Of a stretch of 42,462 bases of DNA, positions 25,141-38,817 are shown in pieces. Every line of letters starts with the position of its first letter. Position 1 is the first letter of the stretch. Origin of the DNA: Escherichia phage 26; sequence record NC_073320.1. One strand, 5' to 3'. The notes beneath the pieces are model-generated. The model did no database searches and was not told where the DNA came from. It worked only from the letters and a program-made list of their open reading frames with translations. The position numbers and the translations under genes were made by a program.

Positions 25141-25755
25141 ATGGCGAAGACTAAAACAGAGATGTTTACCCTTATCGGTGAGAACCTCCCCGATAACACC
25201 ACCGGACTTATTACCCCCGAGAAATTACGAGAAGTAATGACGCAGATGGCAGACTCGCCTATTTACGCCACTCCTGGTGTTAAAGAGGTTGAAGTTCTCC
25301 GTGCCGCGTCGACCGCGATACAAGCGCCTACCGCCGCAGACACAGCATTGCAGTTATCGTTTGGCTCCGCCCAGGGGAGCGCATCTGACCCGGTAATGAT
25401 TAATGCAGCGGGGCTGGTTACGTTCAACACCGCAGGTAACTACGCCGTTCGCATCAAGTTACAGGCTGGCCGCACCGGCGCTAGTGGGACGTCCATCCTG
25501 TTATCACGCATTCTCCTGAACGGCGCTCAGTACGGTTCTCCCGCAGCCACAAAACTGGTAAGCGCCGATACTACAATCCCGATTGAATCCCGCGTTGTCA
25601 TTAACCCTACCGCAGGCCAGACGTTTGCCGTTCAGATTATGCGGGACAGCGCCGGGAGTAACTTCGGTGGCGTATACCCTCAAGCGGCTACCGTAACTGC
25701 ATGGGGTACAGCACCGTCCGCTCTACTGGTTATCTCGAGACTGGAGGCAGCCTGA
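25141..25755 (+). CDS. hypothetical structural protein, 204 aa
   Basis: ORF in connector region. Confidence 0.45.
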   Translation: MAKTKTEMFTLIGENLPDNTTGLITPEKLREVMTQMADSPIYATPGVKEVEVLRAASTAIQAPTAADTALQLSFGSAQGSASDPVMINAAGLVTFNTAGNYAVRIKLQAGRTGASGTSILLSRILLNGAQYGSPAATKLVSADTTIPIESRVVINPTAGQTFAVQIMRDSAGSNFGGVYPQAATVTAWGTAPSALLVISRLEAA

Positions 25756-26114
25756 TGAGCACCGCTTTCAGTAAACGTATGCAAGGTGTAGGTACGCGCC
25801 TGCTAACCAAATTCGGCAGCACGGCATCCCTTGTTCGCACTGGCTCGAAAGTATGGGATGAGGTTCTCGGTGAGTTCGTCTGGTCTGACGATGAAGTGTT
25901 GCCGTTGAAGGCTGTTCCGGTTCCGGTTAACGCAGGACTGGTAAACGGTACGACGATTCAGGCGGGCGACATGATTGTTAAAGCAGATTGCAGCGTCGTT
26001 CCGAAGATGGAAGACAAGGTGCAATTCGGCGGCGAGCAATGGTCTGTCGAAGCCATCGAGAAGAAGATGGTTAACGATGATGTCGTGGCCTACTTTATCC
26101 AGGTGAGAAAATGA
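25755..26114 (+). CDS. hypothetical structural protein, 119 aa
   Basis: start at ATG 25755 overlapping upstream stop. Confidence 0.45.
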   Translation: MSTAFSKRMQGVGTRLLTKFGSTASLVRTGSKVWDEVLGEFVWSDDEVLPLKAVPVPVNAGLVNGTTIQAGDMIVKADCSVVPKMEDKVQFGGEQWSVEAIEKKMVNDDVVAYFIQVRK

Positions 26115-26506: not shown

Positions 26507-26919
26507 TGGGCTACTTTGAGGACTTAACCAAAGCGTTCGATGTGCCGCTGGTAACATTCGGAACAACCAACGGCATCAAGGTCGCGCTTGAAAATATCGA
26601 CGCGCCGACGTCAACCAATACCCCGTATCTGGCAAGTTACATGTTGCTGGCGAATACGGAACAGGCGGATTTGTTCTTCACGGAACAACGCGCCGGTGTT
26701 TATCAGGTAGACATTAACTACGCATCGGTGAAAGGTAGCGCGCCAATCAATAAAATGGCAGACTTACTTAACACGGCGTTTAAAGCAGGTAAGTCATTTT
26801 CGCGTAACGACATCTGCGCCGAGGTTCAATCGGTTAGCCTGGGGCCGCTGATTGTAGAAAACGGATGGGCCAAACGACCATTGTCTATTAACTTTATTGC
26901 ATTCACCAAGAGGCTGTGA
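26506..26919 (+). CDS. tail terminator-like protein (by position)
   Basis: 137-aa ORF directly before tail tube gene. Confidence 0.45.
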   Translation: MGYFEDLTKAFDVPLVTFGTTNGIKVALENIDAPTSTNTPYLASYMLLANTEQADLFFTEQRAGVYQVDINYASVKGSAPINKMADLLNTAFKAGKSFSRNDICAEVQSVSLGPLIVENGWAKRPLSINFIAFTKRL

Positions 26920-28088
26920 ATATGGCTACAACTCCTTTTAAGGGCGCGACTACCGCGCAATTCTATGTGGCGGAAGTCACCCCGGGCGTAACACCGACTA
27001 ACCCAGTATGGTCGCCGTTGCGTAACACAGGTGGCGTCCCCGCCATTACCCGCGACACACTGACCTCCAACGAACTGGACGGCAGCCGTGAAACTACATC
27101 CATCCGCACGGGCAACAAACAGGTTAGCGGGGAGTACGCCATTGAGCTTAGCTCGAAAAGCCAGGATGACTGGTTAGCGGGTGCTTTAGGCTCTACGTGG
27201 CAATCCGGTGTATCCTTGGCTGACCTGTCAATTACCGTAGCACCGGCTGGCAAGACGTTCACCCGTGCTGATGGCAGCTTCATTACTGACGGCGTTGAAG
27301 TAGGCGACCTGATTGCGTTTACCGACTTAACCGGTGACAACGCAAAACCATTTATCGTCACTGCGGTAGAGGCACTGGTATTGACCGGTGCGGGCATCCA
27401 GCACACTCTCACCACAGAGACCGCTACTACTGCGGCTAAGACCGGCGACAAACTGGAAACCGGTAGCCAGTGTAAGACGTTCTCTATTCTCACATGGTAC
27501 AAAGGCCAGTGCGGCGGGACTGACGCGTACACGCTTACCAAAGGCGTGGAAGTTTCAGGTTTTACCGTCGAGCAGGCTGTTAACGCGATGGTAACGGGCA
27601 GCTTCCCGTTCATCGGGCGCAGCCAGGAGATTCTCACTACGCCACCGTCTGGTTCTGATTTCTCCTCTGTTACGTTTGGTGATGAGCCGTTCTCCTCGGT
27701 TGACGTTTCTGTGTTCGACGGTTCTACGCCGTTGCGTTGTGATAGCCTGACCATCACCAACGATAACAGCGCGTCCGCGCAGTTCGAACTCGGCAACACT
27801 AACGTAGCGTTTGTGGAACGTAGCCGCGCGGCTAACACCTTCTCCATCTCCGGTAAGCTGTACGACATGGCGATGATTCAGAAGTTTATCAACGAGCAGC
27901 AGGTAGAGATTAACTCTATTCTGGCGGGGGTAAACGGGGCTATGTCTTTCAGTCTGAAACGCGCAGAACTCACGGCGGTTACACCAGAGATTGGCGGACC
28001 TGAGTCAATCACTCAGTCCATTGAAGGCCAGGCTACCGGCAACCAGTATCAGTCGTCTATCGTTATCCAGCGTATTAGCTACGCATAA
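26916..28088 (+). CDS. major tail (tube) protein
   Basis: 390 aa upstream of chaperone/tape-measure genes; followed by strong terminator. Confidence 0.6.
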   Translation: MNMATTPFKGATTAQFYVAEVTPGVTPTNPVWSPLRNTGGVPAITRDTLTSNELDGSRETTSIRTGNKQVSGEYAIELSSKSQDDWLAGALGSTWQSGVSLADLSITVAPAGKTFTRADGSFITDGVEVGDLIAFTDLTGDNAKPFIVTAVEALVLTGAGIQHTLTTETATTAAKTGDKLETGSQCKTFSILTWYKGQCGGTDAYTLTKGVEVSGFTVEQAVNAMVTGSFPFIGRSQEILTTPPSGSDFSSVTFGDEPFSSVDVSVFDGSTPLRCDSLTITNDNSASAQFELGNTNVAFVERSRAANTFSISGKLYDMAMIQKFINEQQVEINSILAGVNGAMSFSLKRAELTAVTPEIGGPESITQSIEGQATGNQYQSSIVIQRISYA

Positions 28089-28116
28089 AACTAAGGCCCC
28101 TTTCGGGGCCTTTTTC
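28089..28116. terminator. bidirectional terminator AAGGCCCC-TTTC-GGGGCCTT
   Basis: 8-bp GC stem then T-run; between convergent tail tube (+) and moron cassette (-). Confidence 0.65.
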
Positions 28117-28347
28117 TTACTCGTCGATATTGCTTCGATACTCCCGTAACTTCTCCAGACTTTCAATTGCTTCCGCTAAGTCGGTTCCGGTGTCCTTGTG
28201 CCCACGAAGACCCATACACAGCAGCTTCTTCAATGCGTGCTGTAGCGCCGGGTCGCGTATATCGAAGGCGCGTAGCACATCGTAAACGTCTACTGTCATT
28301 GTGCTGCCGTGAGTATTTGTCATTGTGCGGTTGTATTTTGAAGTCAT
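28117..28347 (-). CDS. hypothetical protein, 76 aa (moron cassette gene 3)
   Basis: ATGA overlap with phosphoesterase stop. Confidence 0.5.
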   Translation of the reverse strand: MTSKYNRTMTNTHGSTMTVDVYDVLRAFDIRDPALQHALKKLLCMGLRGHKDTGTDLAEAIESLEKLREYRSNIDE

Positions 28348-29474
28348 CCCAGCATCTCCGGTGAAATAGTTAAACGTGCGACCTCTCCATATTCTGCGCT
28401 ATATGTTATCACGTTAGCGCTACGACCAGACATCCATCCACCGCGGGAGGCGTATGCGTCTTTCGCGGCTAAGGTGCGGTGTTGCTCAACAATCATGTTA
28501 CGGCTTTCTACAATCTTCTGATGGTGCAGGTGGCCTACGTGGGCGTAGCTATAAACACTCTCGCCAAACGCTTTGCGGAACTTAGCTATCATAATGGGCT
28601 CGACCACCTCAAACCGGCATTTATGCCCGTGGGTAAAGAACAGCGTCGTTTTGCCGTGTCGCACCATCTTGTAAACATCCGGCGACGTATCGACGAACAC
28701 ACGCGGCTCGTTGTCGTACAGCGTACTGAACATCTCGGCCAGCCAAATCATTCCGCTTTCATCGTGGTTCCCTTGCACTATAAGCAAGCGAACATTTTTA
28801 TGCTTAACCAGCGCCATATCTACAACACGGCGCACCATACGAATCATGTAGCGAACAAGTTTTTGGTAGCGAGTGTCCGCGTCAAGGGCGTGACCGCTTG
28901 CCGGCGTAACGGCAACCAGACTATCGAAGTGCGCGAAGTCACCTAACAGGTTAATAACTCCGGTTCCAGCGTCCGGCGCTTTCTGAAACGCCGCGTCGAA
29001 CCATCGGGAGAACAGGCCTTCCGCAATCTTCATATCCCAGTCGTCGCCGCTCTCGTCGGCCCAGGCCAGCATGCCGAGATGGAAATCTGATACCGTGTAA
29101 AGATTGAGTAGTTTATCGTCTCGTTTAGCGCGAACGGCTTTAACAGGCGCAACTGGAGTAATCTCTGACTTCATGCCTTCGATTACGGCTTTCATTAACT
29201 CGACCTGACGTTCGGCGTCAGTGTCGGTCTTAACCCATTGCAATTTAGTGTTGCCGAACTCGTCCACCAGTGACGACGTTCCTTTAATCTTGTAGCCGTC
29301 TGGTACAAGATGACTGACGTCGCGGCCGTGTCCCACGCCTTTCTTAGCCAGCTTTGCTTTACGGATACGAATTACGCGGTCTGAGATGCCATATTTACGG
29401 GCTATATAGATAGTTTTAACTCCGGCGTTCAATTCTTCCTGTAACTGTTCGTCGGTTATTTTCTTCCGGGCCAT
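28344..29474 (-). CDS. HTH domain - calcineurin-like metallophosphoesterase fusion (moron cassette gene 2)
   Basis: N-terminal MARKKITDEQLQEELNAGVKTIYIARKYGISDR; phosphoesterase motifs SDFHLG, GDFAHFD, GNHD, THGH, GHLHH. Confidence 0.7.
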   Translation of the reverse strand: MARKKITDEQLQEELNAGVKTIYIARKYGISDRVIRIRKAKLAKKGVGHGRDVSHLVPDGYKIKGTSSLVDEFGNTKLQWVKTDTDAERQVELMKAVIEGMKSEITPVAPVKAVRAKRDDKLLNLYTVSDFHLGMLAWADESGDDWDMKIAEGLFSRWFDAAFQKAPDAGTGVINLLGDFAHFDSLVAVTPASGHALDADTRYQKLVRYMIRMVRRVVDMALVKHKNVRLLIVQGNHDESGMIWLAEMFSTLYDNEPRVFVDTSPDVYKMVRHGKTTLFFTHGHKCRFEVVEPIMIAKFRKAFGESVYSYAHVGHLHHQKIVESRNMIVEQHRTLAAKDAYASRGGWMSGRSANVITYSAEYGEVARLTISPEMLG

Positions 29475-29512
29475 GCTTACTTCCTCGTGTTTAGGATTTG
29501 TCCTATGCTAGC

Positions 29513-29704
29513 TCACTTCTCGTTAACATTCGAGTTGCAAGCCCAGATTAAAATAAATACCCACGGCAACAGAACCCAACCAAGAAATAGATTAGCCATG
29601 AATATCGCCAACTTCGCTTTATGGTTGCGGAAATACGCAACCAGGAAAGGCGCGAAATAAGCGAGCAGTGCAAACAGAATTAAGGAAACTGGTAAACTTG
29701 ACAT
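29513..29704 (-). CDS. small two-TM membrane protein, superinfection-immunity (Imm)-like (moron cassette gene 1)
   Basis: FAPFLVAYFRNHK..FLGWVLLPW; start ATG 29704 after GGAGGG (track ORF begins at 29719); family match from memory. Confidence 0.5.
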   Translation of the reverse strand: MSSLPVSLILFALLAYFAPFLVAYFRNHKAKLAIFMANLFLGWVLLPWVFILIWACNSNVNEK

Positions 29705-29731
29705 TTTAAATCCCTCCATTGTTGGTGTGGG

Positions 29732-29754
29732 TGAATAGTACCCTATTATATTGG
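29732..29754. promoter_or_regulatory. 23-bp promoter-like element TGAATAGTACCCTATTATATTGG, copy 2
   Basis: identical to 19486-19508; reverse complement supplies TATAAT about 40 nt upstream of the Imm-like gene start. Confidence 0.5.
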
Positions 29755-29871
29755 GGTGCGCAAGTAGTGTGCTAGAATAATTTTGCGCCTAGTGTCGCAC
29801 ACGAAAAGCGGGTGGTTCCCGTCTGGCGCATTTATCGTTAACCAGTAACCTCTTAACCAAAGGATTAAAGA

Positions 29872-30288
29872 ATGAAACTTTCTGATTTTTATTTCGAAGA
29901 GAAAGCACTGGTAGGCAAGAAGATGCCTATTCTCCTGCCAAATGGTGAAGACTCAGGGGAATGGCTTAATGTTGTAAATCCGGATGCGGATGCCGCCGTT
30001 AAAGCGGGGCGTGCTTTCATTATCGCGTACCGCCGCGGGCTAGCGCGTTTTGAAGAACTGGAAAAAGCCGCCAAAGATTCCGGCGACTATACTGAATATA
30101 ACCTGGCGGTTAACGAACTGGCGGAAGACCTCAACCGGCAACTTGCGGCAGAAGTCGTAAACGGGTGGAGCTTTGATGAGCCTTTCTCTAAGGAAGAATT
30201 TAATAATCTCCTCTGCCAGTTCAAGGCATTAGGCACACAGGTTGCAGCGTTCCATAACGCCGAGCGCAAAGCATTACAGGAAAAGTAG
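29872..30288 (+). CDS. tail assembly chaperone (G-like)
   Basis: 138-aa ORF before tape measure; overlapping -1 frame ORF downstream. Confidence 0.6.
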   Translation: MKLSDFYFEEKALVGKKMPILLPNGEDSGEWLNVVNPDADAAVKAGRAFIIAYRRGLARFEELEKAAKDSGDYTEYNLAVNELAEDLNRQLAAEVVNGWSFDEPFSKEEFNNLLCQFKALGTQVAAFHNAERKALQEK

Positions 30289-30653
30289 ACGCGCTGTACA
30301 GGTTCGCCACCTATGAGTTTGTGGATAAGCATAAAATCAGAGAGTTTGATTCTATAGCTGACGGACACGAACAGGCGCTTATCGCGATGGGTGTAATCGA
30401 TAAGAAAAAACGTGCAGCGCGACGGGGTGGGCCAGAATGCCCGCCCCTTTTTATATCCACCTTTGAGACGTATTGCGACATTAAGTTTACGCGACACGTG
30501 CGCGAGGACGCTGTAGTATTGTTTGCAAGAGAATCCGTTACATGGCAAGACCTGAAAGCCTATCTCGGTGTTACGCAAAAGCAGCTTAGTCTGTTCGAGA
30601 TAGACATTATCATGGGCTTAGAAGCAATCTTTGAAGGTAGAAATCATGGCTGA
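30258..30653 (+). CDS. tail assembly chaperone -1 frameshift extension (GT-like)
   Basis: -1 frame open from 30258 to 30653, overlapping the last 10 codons of the chaperone; candidate slip site G GAA AAG / A AAA G at 30279-30285 just before the TAG stop. Confidence 0.45.
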   Translation, partial: RRAQSITGKVDALYRFATYEFVDKHKIREFDSIADGHEQALIAMGVIDKKKRAARRGGPECPPLFISTFETYCDIKFTRHVREDAVVLFARESVTWQDLKAYLGVTQKQLSLFEIDIIMGLEAIFEGRNHG

Positions 30654-36840: not shown

Positions 36841-38817
36841 ATGTCAAGCGGATGTGGTGATGTTGTAAGTCTGGAGTCGATGCAAATCGCACGTAAACAC
36901 CAGATTTTCGAAATCGAGGTTATCACCGGTAAATCCGGCGGTGTTTCCGGTGGTGCGGATATTGATTACGCGACCAACGCAGTTACTGGCCAGACCCAAA
37001 AGACGCTCCCGGCCGTGTTGCGCGACGTTGGGTTTCTTCCTGCTGGCTTTGATTTTTCCACAGGTGGCACCTTATCTATAAATGATAGAAATAAATCAGT
37101 TTTGTGGCCTTCTTCCTCAGGCGGCGATGACCAGTACTACACATGGCAGGGGGTTCTACCTAAAGTTATTCCCGCTTCCAGTTCTCCTAGTGCATCAGGA
37201 GGAGTAGCACCAGGTGCTTGGGTTCAGGTATCGTATTTAGCGTTAAAAACCGATTTAGCCTCTGTTTTAGGGGCTTCCATGATAGGGCTGCCTGCTGGTG
37301 GCTCTCTTGATATGGCCTTAAAATACACGACGCCAGAGCAATTTCTTGCTTCAGCAACTGATATGACTGAAGCCATCCAGATGGCCTTTGATTACGGGGA
37401 CGTAGTAGACTTGTCAGGGTCGAACTATACAATAGCTCGCACGATAAATATTCCGGACGGTCGTGTGCTGCGCATGCAAGGCTCCAACATTACGGCGGCT
37501 ACGGGGGTCACACCCCTATTCTCTTTCTCAGGAAAGAACTTAGGTCTAACAATCATTGGCGGCAGTGGTGTAGTGACAGGGTCAGCTAGTGCCTTTTTGT
37601 ACTGCGAGGGCGCGAGCGACACCCCGGTAAACGCGGACTATGTTAAGCAAGTACGTATTTATGGGGTAAACGTATCTTCTGCTACGTTTGAACGGGCTAT
37701 ACTGTTCGACAAAGCGGTACGTCAAGTGTTTATAGATAGCTGCATGTTCTATACACGCAACGGCATTGAGTCTACTGGTAAATGCGTAGAAGTAATGATT
37801 AATAAATCCATTATTTATGGCGCTACCTCTGATACCGATACATTCGGCGTTAAATTGTCCAGCACGGGAGGTACAAACTTCTACAATGAAGGGTGGCGTC
37901 TAACCGACTGCACAGTTGATAACTTTGCTAATTCAATTGACCTAGCTGATGTGTTTGTATTTACATTCAAGAACGGATATGTGGCTTGTAATGCAACAAC
38001 AGCTTTTGCCGTTACTGTTCGCGGGGTTACCACAACAACGCATTGTCGAGAAATTAACTTTGATGGGGTTATTGGCGGTAAGGTGCGTTTCTTAGATAAT
38101 GCGTCCGGCTCATTGACCATGCATACTCTTATTACAGGAGAGATTACGAACTGTAAACCTGGAACGTGTATAGCTATCGGGGCAAACTTGGCAGGTATTG
38201 ATATCCGCAATATCAAAATCACTTCAAGTCCATCTTGCATACTGGCTTCTGTAGCTAACAACAGTGGTAATATCCATTTTGCAGGCGTTTCTACCGACAG
38301 CACCCTAACCGCGGGCATTATCTTCAACGGAACAAACGGCGGAAACTGTAGCATCTCTGATTTTATATACGCTGGCTCTGGCGAGGCTCTTTCTCTCGCG
38401 CGGGCGGTTCTGCTGTCCAATGTGCCGGTTGTTGGGGCGACGACACCAATTTGGTCTGTGCGTCACGGCTATCAATCTACAACAACGACGGTTACTACAG
38501 GTAATTATATTTCTAGCACTCAATTCACTGCTGCGAAAGGCTCTAAACTACTGTTTAATATTAACATGTCGTACACTGGGGCGGCCGGGTCTAACGGGCA
38601 GTCAATCGGGATAAATGTACCGGCGAATGTATCGCTGCCGAATGGTGCGAAAAGTATGACATTAATACTTCCTGCGGCATCCGGAACAGTTGGATTGACA
38701 CTAGTATGTACTGTTACTGATGATTTTATAAATAATTTATTCAGCGTGACAAATAACACAGGCAACACCTTATCAATACTACCCGGTGCGCACGTTTCAG
38801 TATCGCTATGTAATTAA
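36841..38817 (+). CDS. tailspike / receptor-binding depolymerase with beta-helix
   Basis: 658 aa; N-terminal anchor MSSGCGDVVSLESMQ..; Gly/Ser/Thr/Asn-rich repetitive region typical of right-handed beta-helix. Confidence 0.65.
   Translation: MSSGCGDVVSLESMQIARKHQIFEIEVITGKSGGVSGGADIDYATNAVTGQTQKTLPAVLRDVGFLPAGFDFSTGGTLSINDRNKSVLWPSSSGGDDQYYTWQGVLPKVIPASSSPSASGGVAPGAWVQVSYLALKTDLASVLGASMIGLPAGGSLDMALKYTTPEQFLASATDMTEAIQMAFDYGDVVDLSGSNYTIARTINIPDGRVLRMQGSNITAATGVTPLFSFSGKNLGLTIIGGSGVVTGSASAFLYCEGASDTPVNADYVKQVRIYGVNVSSATFERAILFDKAVRQVFIDSCMFYTRNGIESTGKCVEVMINKSIIYGATSDTDTFGVKLSSTGGTNFYNEGWRLTDCTVDNFANSIDLADVFVFTFKNGYVACNATTAFAVTVRGVTTTTHCREINFDGVIGGKVRFLDNASGSLTMHTLITGEITNCKPGTCIAIGANLAGIDIRNIKITSSPSCILASVANNSGNIHFAGVSTDSTLTAGIIFNGTNGGNCSISDFIYAGSGEALSLARAVLLSNVPVVGATTPIWSVRHGYQSTTTTVTTGNYISSTQFTAAKGSKLLFNINMSYTGAAGSNGQSIGINVPANVSLPNGAKSMTLILPAASGTVGLTLVCTVTDDFINNLFSVTNNTGNTLSILPGAHVSVSLCN

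What the first reader, a model, noticed from the sequence alone, without database searches (positions are those of the whole stretch)
28117..29704. Three-gene reverse-oriented moron cassette splitting the tail module
Between the tail tube gene and the tail chaperone/tape measure genes lie three minus-strand genes with their own promoter-like element and a bidirectional terminator. They encode a two-TM Imm-like membrane protein, a 376-aa HTH plus calcineurin-like metallophosphoesterase fusion, and a 76-aa protein, with an ATGA overlap between genes 2 and 3. Tail modules are normally uninterrupted, so this is accessory cargo. The combination fits superinfection exclusion or anti-defence; a DNA-binding phosphoesterase could act as a nuclease or as a phosphodiesterase degrading host immune signalling nucleotides, but that is speculation.
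Basis: partly seen in the sequence, partly recalled or inferred. Interest (0 to 1): 0.7.

Follow-up and report, generated by a model that had tools for sequence, protein, structure and literature searches.

The report
Swappable accessory genes splitting tail genes
Between the tail-tube and tail-chaperone genes, this Kagunavirus phage carries a backward-facing three-gene insert: a T4 Imm-like membrane protein, a probable DNA-cutting metallophosphoesterase and a small unknown protein. The insert is real and under selection, but hundreds of related sequenced phages have the same slot, so it is ordinary for this group.

Summary
Three minus-strand genes (76 aa, 376 aa, 63 aa) lie between the tail tube and tail chaperone genes. 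They have an ATGA overlap, a shared hairpin terminator and only a weak promoter-like site. The window is a Kagunavirus genome, about 90% identical to Bas74 and K1G, and Bas74 has the same cassette.

In the comparison set, all 33 close relatives carry the phosphoesterase in this slot. Its neighbours swap: Imm or a signal-peptide protein on one side, and the 76-aa protein or a PNKP-type 3'-phosphatase plus P-loop kinase pair on the other. More distant relatives have a 94-480 bp gap or a single small gene there. Two of them, read as whole genomes, have no phosphoesterase anywhere. The slot is therefore an old cargo site, not a tail-assembly requirement.

The phosphoesterase belongs to a very large, uncharacterised phage family (phrog_704, found in 2,039 phage records). 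All metal-binding motifs are invariant. Its model most resembles the PolD DP1 exonuclease and Mre11, and T4 gp47 is the nearest phage enzyme tested. In other phages it heads operons with a 3'-phosphatase, a kinase and a DNA ligase. A DNA nuclease or end-processing role is most likely, and nothing supports a role in degrading signalling nucleotides.

In passing, I found a covarying structured RNA (Rfam int-alpA-like) just upstream of the chaperone gene.

The parts
26916..28088 (+). Tail tube gene, which forms the left border of the slot
   Evidence: PF18906 Phage_tube_2, E 5.6e-39; phrog_290
28093..28112 (.). G+C-rich hairpin (8 pairs, 4-nt loop) with T-runs on both strands. It is a shared terminator for the tube gene and for the leftward cassette.
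   Evidence: Scored as terminator-like on both strands. RNA fold -17.4 kcal/mol, z = -4.45, with 0 of 200 shuffles as stable. Serratia phage Eta has an annotated bidirectional terminator at the same position.
28117..28347 (-). p76, a 76-aa soluble protein of unknown function (phrog_2452). It occupies the swappable 3' position of the cassette.
   Evidence: phrog_2452, E 2e-36. No Pfam match for any of the 24 aligned family members (the window protein plus 23 homologues). The AF2 model (pLDDT 87.8) is a beta-hairpin plus three helices with no PDB fold match. 19 synonymous and 0 non-synonymous changes against Bas74. Mutually exclusive with the PNKP-phosphatase plus P-loop pair in 33 relatives, 17 to 16.
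28344..29474 (-). HTH-metallophosphoesterase, 376 aa (phrog_704). The HTH covers residues 8-44 (about 29340-29474), a beta-hairpin plus helix covers residues 61-102, and the phosphoesterase core covers residues 119-376 (28347-29120).
   Evidence: phrog_704, E 2.6e-163 over the full length. D130, H132, G178, D179, N236, H237, H282, G314 and H317 are invariant, and H182 and H315 are nearly invariant. AF2 pLDDT 92.5. Best Foldseek PDB matches are PolD DP1 and Mre11. hhalign against T4 gp47 gives 49% probability over 185 columns.
29513..29704 (-). T4 Imm-like two-TM inner-membrane protein, 63 aa. An alternative upstream ATG at 29719 would give 68 aa.
   Evidence: PF14373, E 9.3e-13, 48.3 bits against a cut-off of 27.9. 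phrog_1039 'immunity to superinfection'. BLASTP against T4 Imm gives E 8e-10. Two hydrophobic segments, roughly residues 4-26 and 32-58.
29745..29750 (-). Perfect -10 hexamer (TATAAT) for leftward transcription, with only a weak -35
   Evidence: Found by the relaxed scan but not by the consensus scan. Eta has annotated divergent promoters at the equivalent place.
29751..29778 (+). Promoter-like site (TTGGGG, 16-nt spacer, extended TG, TAGAAT) pointing rightward at the chaperone and tape-measure genes
   Evidence: Relaxed scan. The sequence is conserved across Kagunavirus loci.
29782..29846 (+). Structured RNA element resembling Rfam int-alpA. It forms the right border of the slot and the 5' leader of the chaperone gene.
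   Evidence: RF02996, 34.1 bits against a gathering score of 35.8, E 1.2e-4, full-length match. It recurs at the same place in K1G, L010 and L013. 11 of 17 pairs change on both sides; the covariation score is 0.398 against 0.149 for shuffles, 0 of 500.
29872..30653 (+). Tail assembly chaperone gene (29872-30288) with its -1 frameshift extension (30321-30653), which forms the right flank
   Evidence: The two halves match positions 1-138 and 152-259 of phrog_15027. PF23812. K1G annotates a joined product.

Best explanation
The interval between the tail-tube and tail-chaperone genes is an old cargo slot in this phage lineage. It holds a leftward transcription unit that runs from a divergent promoter region beside the chaperone gene to a hairpin terminator shared with the tube gene. 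In this phage the slot holds three separately exchangeable genes.

1. **Imm-like protein.** A T4 Imm-type two-TM inner-membrane protein. It most likely makes the infected cell refractory to DNA entry by later-arriving phages.
2. **HTH-metallophosphoesterase (phrog_704).** This is the one element present in every close relative examined. It most likely is a two-metal, probably Mn2+-dependent, phosphodiesterase acting on DNA, held on DNA by its N-terminal HTH. That would make it a stand-alone nuclease in the manner of Mre11/SbcD/gp47, PolD DP1 or P. putida MPE. I favour a role in trimming or cleaning DNA ends during phage DNA metabolism.
3. **p76.** A 76-aa soluble protein of unknown fold. It sits in a position that sister phages fill with a PNKP-type 3'-phosphatase plus a P-loop kinase.

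**Shown here:** the gene structure, purifying selection, family memberships, intact catalytic motifs, fold class, presence and absence among relatives, and gene neighbourhoods.

**Inferred:** the substrate (DNA), the biological role, the exclusion function of Imm, and the time of expression.
For: **Slot and cargo swapping.**
- 33 of 33 IMG/VR relatives with tube identity of at least 88% have the phosphoesterase in a 1,785-2,937 bp gap.
- At the 3' position, 17 have p76 and 16 have the phosphatase plus P-loop pair.
- At the 5' position, 23 have Imm, 9 have a signal-peptide protein and 1 has neither.
- 22 relatives with 64-77% tube identity show no phosphoesterase within about 7 kb of the tube gene, and most have short tube-chaperone gaps, down to 94 bp.
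- Eta and VLCpiS11a lack the gene genome-wide.

**Imm.** PF14373 above its cut-off; BLASTP against T4 Imm, E 8e-10; two TM segments.

**Phosphoesterase as a nuclease-type enzyme.**
- All metal ligands are invariant, and the motif I (TDxHxGM) and motif II (GDFxH, with H182 nearly invariant) signatures are of the Mre11/SbcD kind.
- The best PDB folds are the PolD DP1 3'-5' exonuclease (2.5e-8) and Mre11 (5e-8).
- The best sub-threshold sequence hits are T. maritima Mre11/SbcD and P. putida 'Nuclease MPE'.
- T4 gp47 aligns over 185 columns (49% probability). T5 A1 aligns over only 23 columns and Bxb1 gp47 over 86.
- The N-terminal HTH is seen in the model and gives a weak GerE-type match.

**Gene neighbours.**
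- In K1G-type phages a HAD_PNKP phosphatase follows directly. It matches PF25109 at E 7e-20, and its PDB hits are Pnkp1 and T4 Pnkp. A P-loop protein comes next.
- In PP99, ECBP5 and MR4-type phages the order is endonuclease VII, phosphoesterase, PNKP phosphatase, P-loop kinase, ATP-dependent DNA ligase.
- In Campylobacter phage Los1 a DNA ligase lies immediately upstream. In a Vibrio phage an SSB gene lies upstream.

**Precedent from the literature.** P. putida MPE cuts ssDNA and leaves a mixture of 3'-PO4 and 3'-OH ends (PMC7826289). That would explain pairing such an enzyme with a 3'-phosphatase.
Against: - No sequence match to a characterised nuclease is significant (PDB profile E 0.15-0.23; PdeM 9.2 bits against a cut-off of 150).
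- Foldseek does not separate nucleases sharply from the cyclic-nucleotide phosphodiesterase Rv0805 (1.3e-7) or from YfcE.
- The window has no Rad50/SbcC-type partner. It also lacks the phosphatase and kinase pair; a DNA ligase was not searched for.
- PHROGs calls the P-loop neighbour a dNMP kinase (phrog_139). An N4-like phage has the gene next to thymidylate synthase. Both fit nucleotide salvage as well as end repair.
- The only expression data I found place the Imm gene of a related phage in a loosely defined 'late' class (PMC12645636).
- Nothing here is biochemical.
Confidence: 0.5

Rival explanations
1. The phosphoesterase is a host-takeover nuclease. It degrades the bacterial chromosome, shutting off host and defence gene expression and feeding nucleotide salvage. 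The neighbouring HAD phosphatase and dNMP-kinase-like protein in sister phages would then process the released nucleotides rather than heal DNA ends.
For: There are two experimental precedents for phage metallophosphoesterases that destroy host DNA. Mycobacteriophage A10ZJ24 gp48 does so (PMC12287305). T5 A1 is a predicted metallophosphatase that is sufficient for DNA loss (bioRxiv 10.64898/2026.04.02.716235). Some A1 homologues also carry N-terminal HTH domains, and T5 has a two-TM membrane protein gene right next to A1. The P-loop neighbour matches phrog_139, dNMP kinase. In other phages the neighbours include a dATP/dGTP diphosphohydrolase domain, thymidylate synthase and dCMP deaminase.
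Against: The family is not demonstrably homologous to T5 A1 (23 aligned columns, 22% probability) or to the cluster-A mycobacteriophage enzyme (Bxb1 gp47, 18%). The HAD neighbour matches the polynucleotide 3'-phosphatase domain of Pnkp, not a nucleotidase. A DNA ligase in the same operon fits repair better than destruction. No Guernseyvirinae data I found show host DNA degradation.
Confidence: 0.22
2. The phosphoesterase is an anti-defence enzyme that hydrolyses immune signalling nucleotides (CBASS, Pycsar, Thoeris or type III CRISPR messengers) or Ap4A.
For: The metallophosphoesterase superfamily contains cyclic-nucleotide phosphodiesterases. Rv0805 is among the Foldseek hits at 1.3e-7. The gene sits in a cargo slot next to a superinfection-exclusion-type gene.
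Against: An N-terminal HTH has no obvious use for a small-molecule hydrolase. The conserved neighbours are nucleic-acid enzymes: PNKP phosphatase, ligase, endonuclease VII, SSB and exonuclease. The closest folds and motif signatures are nuclease-type. BASEL phenotyping reports Kagunavirus as broadly sensitive to the tested defences.
Confidence: 0.07
3. The 376-aa protein is mainly a regulator. Either it is an HTH transcription factor at the early/late boundary whose phosphoesterase domain is secondary, or it is a lambda-phosphatase-like protein phosphatase.
For: In several unrelated phages the gene sits at the junction between replication genes and lysis or structural genes. The HTH gives a weak GerE/LuxR-type match (E 0.015).
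Against: All catalytic metal ligands are invariant over 61 sequences at 31-48% identity to the window protein, so catalysis is under selection. HTH-less homologues exist, for example the 317-aa Campylobacter phage protein. The motifs are not of the PPP type (GDxHG, GDxVDRG) (read directly). Lambda phosphatase and CthPnkp are not among the top 50 fold matches.
Confidence: 0.05
4. The cassette is required for tail assembly and is therefore a genuine part of the tail module.
For: It has a fixed position inside the tail module in every Kagunavirus and Jerseyvirus examined.
Against: Relatives with homologous tube, chaperone and tape-measure genes have no cassette (94 bp gap in L048 and L049). Eta and VLCpiS11a have no phosphoesterase at all. 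Other phage families encode the same protein far from their tail genes.
Confidence: 0.02

Closest known systems
The same cassette in Escherichia phage SonjaBuckley_Bas74 (PQ850627), and the variant in Kagunavirus K1G (NC_027993)
   Same: Bas74 has an identical gene order and lengths. Its p76 and the shared 63 residues of its Imm are 100% identical at the protein level, and its phosphoesterase is 96% identical. K1G has the same slot, terminator, Imm and phosphoesterase.
   Different: DNA identity is about 91%. K1G carries a PNKP-type phosphatase plus a P-loop protein where this phage has p76.
T4 Imm (superinfection immunity, PF14373)
   Same: It is a small two-TM inner-membrane protein with significant sequence similarity.
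   Different: It has 63 aa against 83 aa, 26% identity, and sits in a tail-module slot of a siphovirus. The exclusion function is untested.
Mre11/SbcD/T4 gp47 nucleases and the PolD DP1 exonuclease
   Same: Binuclear metallophosphoesterase fold, motif I DxHxG and motif II GDxxH signatures, best structural matches, and the longest profile alignment among the phage enzymes tested.
   Different: No Rad50/SbcC/gp46 partner is encoded. There is an extra N-terminal HTH and beta-hairpin. Sequence similarity is not significant.
P. putida MPE / PdeM, the ligase- and Lhr-associated ssDNA endonuclease (PDB 6NVO; PMC7826289)
   Same: It is a stand-alone metallophosphoesterase encoded beside nucleic-acid repair enzymes, including an ATP-dependent ligase. 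Relatives of the window phage show the same association. One public record names a 96%-identical homologue after this PDB entry (P0038).
   Different: The TIGR04123 score is 9.2 bits against a cut-off of 150. The PDB profile hit has E 0.23 over 23 residues. There is no Lhr helicase. The phage protein is larger and has an HTH.
T5 A1 and mycobacteriophage A10ZJ24 gp48 (phage metallophosphoesterases linked to host DNA degradation)
   Same: They are phage-encoded enzymes of the same superfamily. Some A1 homologues also carry an N-terminal HTH, and a two-TM membrane protein gene lies beside A1.
   Different: They are not the same family. hhalign probability is 22% (A1 family) and 18% (Bxb1 gp47).

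Membership tests
Pfam PF14373 Imm_superinfect (T4 Imm) | Profile match above the curated cut-off | tested here: met
   48.3 bits against 27.9, E 9.3e-13
Pfam PF14373 Imm_superinfect (T4 Imm) | Two transmembrane helices and direct similarity to T4 Imm | tested here: met
   Two Kyte-Doolittle segments above 1.6; BLASTP against T4 Imm, E 8e-10
Pfam PF14373 Imm_superinfect (T4 Imm) | Blocks DNA entry by superinfecting phage | not testable with these tools
   Needs an expression and challenge experiment
Calcineurin-like metallophosphoesterase superfamily | Five metal-binding motifs (DxH, GD, GNH[DE], H, GHxH) | tested here: met
   D130, H132, G178, D179, N236, H237, H282, G314 and H317 are invariant, and H315 is nearly invariant, in 61 sequences
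Calcineurin-like metallophosphoesterase superfamily | Pfam model match above the gathering score | tested here: not met
   Metallophos_2 scores 23.9 against 27, and Metallophos scores 18.7 against 21.5. The family is divergent, so superfamily membership rests on motifs and fold.
Calcineurin-like metallophosphoesterase superfamily | Alpha/beta sandwich fold | tested here: met
   Model pLDDT 92.5. 123 PDB matches at E <= 0.001, and the top 50 are metallophosphoesterases.
phrog_704 (annotated 'DNA repair exonuclease') | Full-length profile match | tested here: met
   E 2.6e-163, residues 4-375 against profile positions 2-389 of 390. The family name is an annotation, not a tested function.
Mre11/SbcD/gp47 nucleases | Significant sequence or profile similarity | tested here: inconclusive
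   PDB profile E 0.15; hhalign against T4 gp47 gives 49% probability, E 1.7e-4 for the single comparison; Foldseek 5e-8
Mre11/SbcD/gp47 nucleases | Rad50/SbcC/gp46-type ATPase partner encoded nearby | tested here: not met
   None among the ORFs of at least 100 aa in the window. The large ones are helicase-primase, helicase, exonuclease phrog_69 and structural proteins.
PdeM / 'Nuclease MPE' (TIGR04123) | NCBIfam match above the cut-off | tested here: not met
   9.2 bits against 150
PdeM / 'Nuclease MPE' (TIGR04123) | Operon with an ATP-dependent ligase and an Lhr helicase | tested here: not met
   No ligase or Lhr helicase lies within the slot in this window, which holds only three genes, none of them either; a genome-wide ligase search was not run. 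A ligase is adjacent in PP99/ECBP5-type phages and in Los1. No Lhr was seen anywhere.
Moron (independently transcribed accessory gene within a late operon) | Absent from otherwise syntenic relatives | tested here: met
   94-480 bp gaps in L037-L040, L047-L049, L054, L055 and L065; Eta and VLCpiS11a
Moron (independently transcribed accessory gene within a late operon) | Own terminator | tested here: met
   Hairpin at 28093-28112 on both strands
Moron (independently transcribed accessory gene within a late operon) | Own promoter | tested here: inconclusive
   Perfect -10 with a weak -35; missed by the consensus scan; no transcript data
Known anti-CBASS/Pycsar nucleotide hydrolases (Acb1, Apyc1) | 2H or MBL fold and sequence family | tested here: not met
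   The model has a calcineurin-like fold, not a 2H or metallo-beta-lactamase fold. No dedicated anti-defence profile library was available.
Rfam RF02996 int-alpA RNA (incidental element) | Score at or above gathering | tested here: not met
   34.1 bits against 35.8 in the window, and 31.8-33.1 in relatives. The matches are full length and the structure covaries.

The most novel reading that the evidence does not exclude
The HTH-metallophosphoesterase family (phrog_704) is the lead enzyme of a widespread phage-encoded break-processing pathway. It would trim damaged or blocked DNA or RNA ends, and the PNKP-type 3'-phosphatase, P-loop kinase and ligase would then heal and seal them. Phages would use this as a counter-measure against host defence nucleases. 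On this reading the tube-chaperone slot of Guernseyvirinae is a small exclusion and counter-defence island, and p76 is an alternative, so far unrecognised, partner or effector.
Probability: 0.2. Interest if true: 0.6.

Novelty: new member of a known kind. Interest (0 to 1): 0.3.

Why it matters
For this window it matters little. The cassette is the normal architecture of a well-sampled phage subfamily and is already annotated in hundreds of records.

The wider point is that its core gene belongs to one of the larger uncharacterised enzyme families of tailed phages. It is found in 2,039 phage records, and 4,621 representative clusters match at E <= 0.001. Annotations for it are inconsistent ('DNA repair exonuclease', 'DNA polymerase II small subunit', 'oxidoreductase'). 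Its recurrent operon partners (PNKP phosphatase, kinase, ligase, endonuclease VII) make its function directly testable in tractable E. coli phages such as Bas74 and K1G.

The slot also shows modular cargo exchange inside a structural operon.

Tried and rejected
- **p76 as a truncated remnant of the K1G P-loop protein.** I suspected this from the PHROG profile coordinates (150-220 of 235). I rejected it because identity to the K1G ATPase is 17%, and p76 is a family of its own.
- **p76 as an obligatory partner or inhibitor of the phosphoesterase.** I rejected this. Phages with 95%-identical phosphoesterases lack p76. p76 homologues in other phages sit among small early genes with no phosphoesterase within the surrounding 10 kb.
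- **p76 as a member of a known family or fold.** I recalled a resemblance to DUF3310, but there is no Pfam hit for any of the 24 aligned members, no PDB fold match, and nothing in NCBIfam or PADLOC.
- **Single-sequence PDB search for the phosphoesterase.** It returned nothing useful.
- **The search for related loci with the 61-sequence alignment.** It failed because no stretch was conserved enough. A 9-sequence alignment worked but returned mostly close relatives.
- **Homology to T5 A1 or Bxb1 gp47.** Not supported.
- **Literature searches.** Searches for functional work on the cassette in Kagunavirus or Guernseyvirinae found only annotation-level mentions.
- **Rfam at gathering threshold on relatives.** It found nothing.
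Full report
**What the window is.** The 42.5-kb window is essentially a whole siphovirus genome of the genus Kagunavirus (subfamily Guernseyvirinae).
- The queried region is about 91% identical over its full length to Escherichia phages SonjaBuckley_Bas74 and DUEC01, and about 91% identical over 94% of its length to K1G.
- The first 25 kb match NTEC3 and relatives at about 90% over 70-74% of their length.
- The non-structural genes include a helicase-primase, a second helicase, a Gp2.5-like SSB/annealing protein, a phrog_69 exonuclease and a DNA methyltransferase.

**Checking the observation.**
- Three minus-strand ORFs lie at 28117-28347 (76 aa), 28344-29474 (376 aa) and 29513-29719. The first two overlap by ATGA.
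- For the third gene, the ATG at 29704 has a GGAGGG Shine-Dalgarno sequence 8 nt upstream. The likely product is therefore 63 aa, as annotated in K1G.
- The flanking genes are the tail tube (PF18906, E 6e-39) and the tail assembly chaperone, whose two frames match the two halves of phrog_15027.
- A G+C-rich hairpin at 28093-28112 scores as a terminator on both strands and is far more stable than shuffled sequence (z = -4.45).
- The promoter claim is the weakest. The consensus scan found nothing on the minus strand. A relaxed scan finds a perfect TATAAT at 29750-29745 with a poor -35, back to back with a plus-strand TTGGGG-16-TGcTAGAAT.
- All three ORFs are real genes. Against Bas74 the synonymous to non-synonymous codon changes are 19:0 (p76), 10:0 (Imm) and 70:15 (phosphoesterase), with differences concentrated at third codon positions.

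**The Imm-like gene.** It matches PF14373 above the curated cut-off (48.3 against 27.9 bits) and phrog_1039. It aligns with T4 Imm at E 8e-10. It has two hydrophobic segments separated by a basic loop. Calling it a T4 Imm-family protein is justified. Its exclusion function is inferred from T4.

**The phosphoesterase: family and motifs.**
- It matches phrog_704 over its full length (E 2.6e-163), but it matches the Pfam Metallophos models only below their cut-offs.
- The family is very large. tblastn finds it in 2,039 phage records: Guernseyvirinae, Dhillonvirus, Drexlerviridae, Vibrio and Klebsiella siphoviruses, N4-like roseophages, and Campylobacter myoviruses, where it lacks the HTH.
- An exhaustive search of 50%-identity cluster representatives gives 4,621 clusters at E <= 0.001.
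- In an alignment of 61 members at 31-48% identity to the window protein, all classical metal ligands are invariant, and H182 in motif II (GDFxH) is nearly so.

**The phosphoesterase: structure and comparisons.**
- The AlphaFold model is confident (pLDDT 92.5). It shows a three-helix HTH, a beta-hairpin plus helix, and the phosphoesterase core.
- The best solved-structure matches are the PolD DP1 proofreading exonuclease (2.5e-8) and Mre11 (5e-8). Rv0805, YfcE and purple acid phosphatases follow within about one order of magnitude. The fold therefore points to nucleases but does not prove it.
- A profile search of PDB sequences gives only sub-threshold hits. They are a GerE-type HTH (0.015), T. 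maritima Mre11/SbcD (0.15, with a convincing motif I/II alignment) and P. putida 'Nuclease MPE' (0.23).
- Among the phage enzymes compared, T4 gp47 aligns best (185 columns, 49% probability). T5 A1 and Bxb1 gp47 share only one or a few motifs.
- The viral structure library returns many homologues, none of them characterised.

**Gene neighbourhood of the family.** I clustered the ORFs around 88 homologues and annotated the recurrent neighbours.
- In K1G-type Kagunavirus, the gene is followed by a translationally coupled HAD phosphatase of the Pnkp type. It matches PF25109 at E 7e-20, and its PDB hits are Pnkp1 and T4 polynucleotide kinase. A P-loop protein (phrog_139, annotated as dNMP kinase) comes next.
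- The same phosphoesterase, phosphatase, P-loop order recurs in unrelated phages (PP99, ECBP5, MR4 and several Klebsiella phages). There an ATP-dependent DNA ligase follows, and endonuclease VII and an exonuclease precede.
- J8-65-type phages have phosphoesterase, a small ORF, the phosphatase, and then a dATP/dGTP-diphosphohydrolase domain protein.
- In Campylobacter phage Los1 a DNA ligase is immediately upstream. In a Vibrio phage an SSB gene is upstream. In an N4-like roseophage thymidylate synthase is upstream.
- In T1-like, Dhillonvirus and a Pseudomonas lambdoid phage, the gene borders the lysis genes.
- Every informative neighbour acts on nucleic acids or nucleotides.
- P. putida MPE, a stand-alone enzyme of this superfamily encoded in a ligase-containing repair operon, cuts ssDNA and leaves mixed 3'-PO4 and 3'-OH ends (PMC7826289). 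This gives a rationale for pairing such an enzyme with a 3'-phosphatase.

**The 76-aa protein.** It belongs to phrog_2452 (unknown function). I found 35 homologue clusters, with a strongly conserved core (KY...VDVYDVL.AF...PA.QHALKKLLC.GLRGHKD). It has no Pfam, NCBIfam or PADLOC match. Its confident model (a beta-hairpin plus three helices) has no PDB counterpart. Elsewhere its homologues sit among small early genes, with no phosphoesterase nearby. It is therefore independent cargo and its function is unknown.

**The slot compared across relatives.** I fetched 60 IMG/VR loci by tail-tube homology and scored them for each gene.
- All 33 loci with at least 88% tube identity and an intact interval have the phosphoesterase. 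The gap ranges from 1,785 to 2,937 bp.
- At the 3' position, 17 have p76 and 16 have the phosphatase plus P-loop pair. None has both.
- At the 5' position, 23 have Imm, 9 have a 108-aa signal-peptide protein (phrog_14165) and 1 has neither.
- HNH endonucleases and a KilAC/Ant-domain protein appear sporadically.
- The 22 loci with 64-77% tube identity have no phosphoesterase nearby. Their gaps go down to 94 bp (L048, L049) or hold one small gene.
- Read as whole genomes, Serratia phage Eta and the Guernseyvirinae member Klebsiella phage VLCpiS11a have no homologue anywhere.
- In both, the slot holds a single small minus-strand gene encoding a membrane or secreted protein.
- In Eta the annotators marked a bidirectional terminator and divergent promoters at the equivalent positions.
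- The slot is thus older than its present cargo. The cargo is exchangeable, and the phosphoesterase is dispensable for the tail and replication modules over evolutionary time, although every close Kagunavirus relative and the two Jerseyvirus genomes examined retain it.

**Interpretation.** The most likely account is a leftward cargo unit holding three independent genes: an exclusion-type membrane protein, a DNA-directed two-metal phosphodiesterase used in phage DNA metabolism, and an unknown small protein.
- I favour end trimming or cleaning, because of the Pnkp-type phosphatase and ligase partners.
- Host-DNA degradation with nucleotide salvage is the main rival. It is supported by the T5 A1 and mycobacteriophage gp48 precedents and by the dNMP-kinase-like neighbour.
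- The signalling-nucleotide hydrolase idea has no specific support. It is disfavoured by the HTH and by the neighbours.
- A tail-assembly role is contradicted by the comparative data.

**Novelty.** The cassette, including this exact version, is already present and annotated in public genomes (Bas74). This is a further member of a known arrangement, and I found no paper that studies its function. The open question is what the phrog_704 family does.

**Seen in passing.**
- Immediately right of the cassette, at 29782-29846 on the plus strand, is a structured RNA. It matches Rfam int-alpA (RF02996) over the full model, just below gathering (34.1 against 35.8 bits). The match recurs at the same place in relatives.
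- Twelve distinct versions from diverse lineages show clear covariation. 11 of 17 pairs change on both sides, and the score is 0.398 against 0.149 for shuffles and at most 0.188 for slid controls.
- The RNA is also present in relatives with no cassette, where it fills the 94-nt tube-chaperone gap.
- The cassette therefore sits between the tube terminator and this leader RNA.

Noticed in passing
window 29782-29846 (+); also L002 5091-5155, L010 10058-10122, L013 10505-10569: A structured RNA lies in the leader of the tail chaperone gene. It is a full-length, just sub-threshold match to Rfam int-alpA (RF02996, 34.1 against 35.8 bits). It consists of an outer stem enclosing two hairpins, with a conserved UGGUU loop and GAAAAG linker, followed by AACC repeats. 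Covariation is strong across 12 distinct sequences (11 of 17 pairs change on both sides). It is also present in relatives without any cassette (L048, L049), where it fills the 94-nt tube-chaperone gap. By eye it is absent from VLCpiS11a-like and Eta-like loci. Its function is unknown; a leader, attenuator or antitermination role is untested.
   Followed up: partly
window 28117-28347 compared with K1G L002 2618-3657; IMG/VR loci L007-L063: p76 and the PNKP-phosphatase plus P-loop pair are strictly either/or at the same position downstream of near-identical phosphoesterase genes (17 against 16 of 33 loci, never both). Imm and a 108-aa signal-peptide protein (phrog_14165) alternate in the same way upstream. 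Every locus carrying the signal-peptide allele has a divergent chaperone allele (about 50% identity), although that chaperone allele also occurs in some Imm-carrying loci, so the recombination boundary may reach into the chaperone gene.
   Followed up: partly
L150 1300-5100 (matches Pectobacterium phage PP99, Escherichia phage ECBP5, Pseudomonas phage MR4): A conserved operon runs exonuclease (phrog_107), endonuclease VII, phosphoesterase (phrog_704), Pnkp-type 3'-phosphatase, P-loop/dNMP-kinase-like protein, ATP-dependent DNA ligase. This looks like a complete cut, heal and seal set in unrelated phages.
   Followed up: partly
L159 (phage T5) 1706-4134: The T5 pre-early region has a 65-aa two-TM membrane protein gene (T5.005) directly beside A1, the predicted metallophosphatase needed for host DNA degradation. 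Several A1 homologues carry N-terminal HTH Pfam domains. The arrangement parallels Imm plus HTH-phosphoesterase here, but profile comparison shows no family-level homology (22% probability).
   Followed up: partly
window 29872-30288 and 30321-30653 (+); also 25141-25755 and 25701-26114 (+): The chaperone gene has the usual two-frame arrangement. The second ORF is in the -1 frame, the two halves match one PHROG, and K1G annotates a joined product. K1G also annotates a joined product for a neck or tail-completion gene upstream of the tail tube gene; I did not locate the equivalent site in the window, though the overlapping ORFs at 25141-25755 and 25701-26114 could be checked.
   Followed up: no
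L061 (IMG/VR contig 3300020047_004187): In one relative the chaperone homologue lies 4.2 kb from the tube gene and on the opposite strand. This suggests a rearrangement or an assembly artefact at the slot.
   Followed up: no
window 36841-38817 (+): The N-terminal ~140 residues of the tailspike match many tailspike and tail-fibre PHROGs, while the rest matches few. This is the usual conserved anchor plus exchangeable receptor-binding domain.
   Followed up: no
whole window: The nearest public genomes are only about 90% identical over 70-100% of the compared stretches. By the usual 95% criterion this phage would be a new Kagunavirus species. I did not compute whole-genome identity.
   Followed up: no
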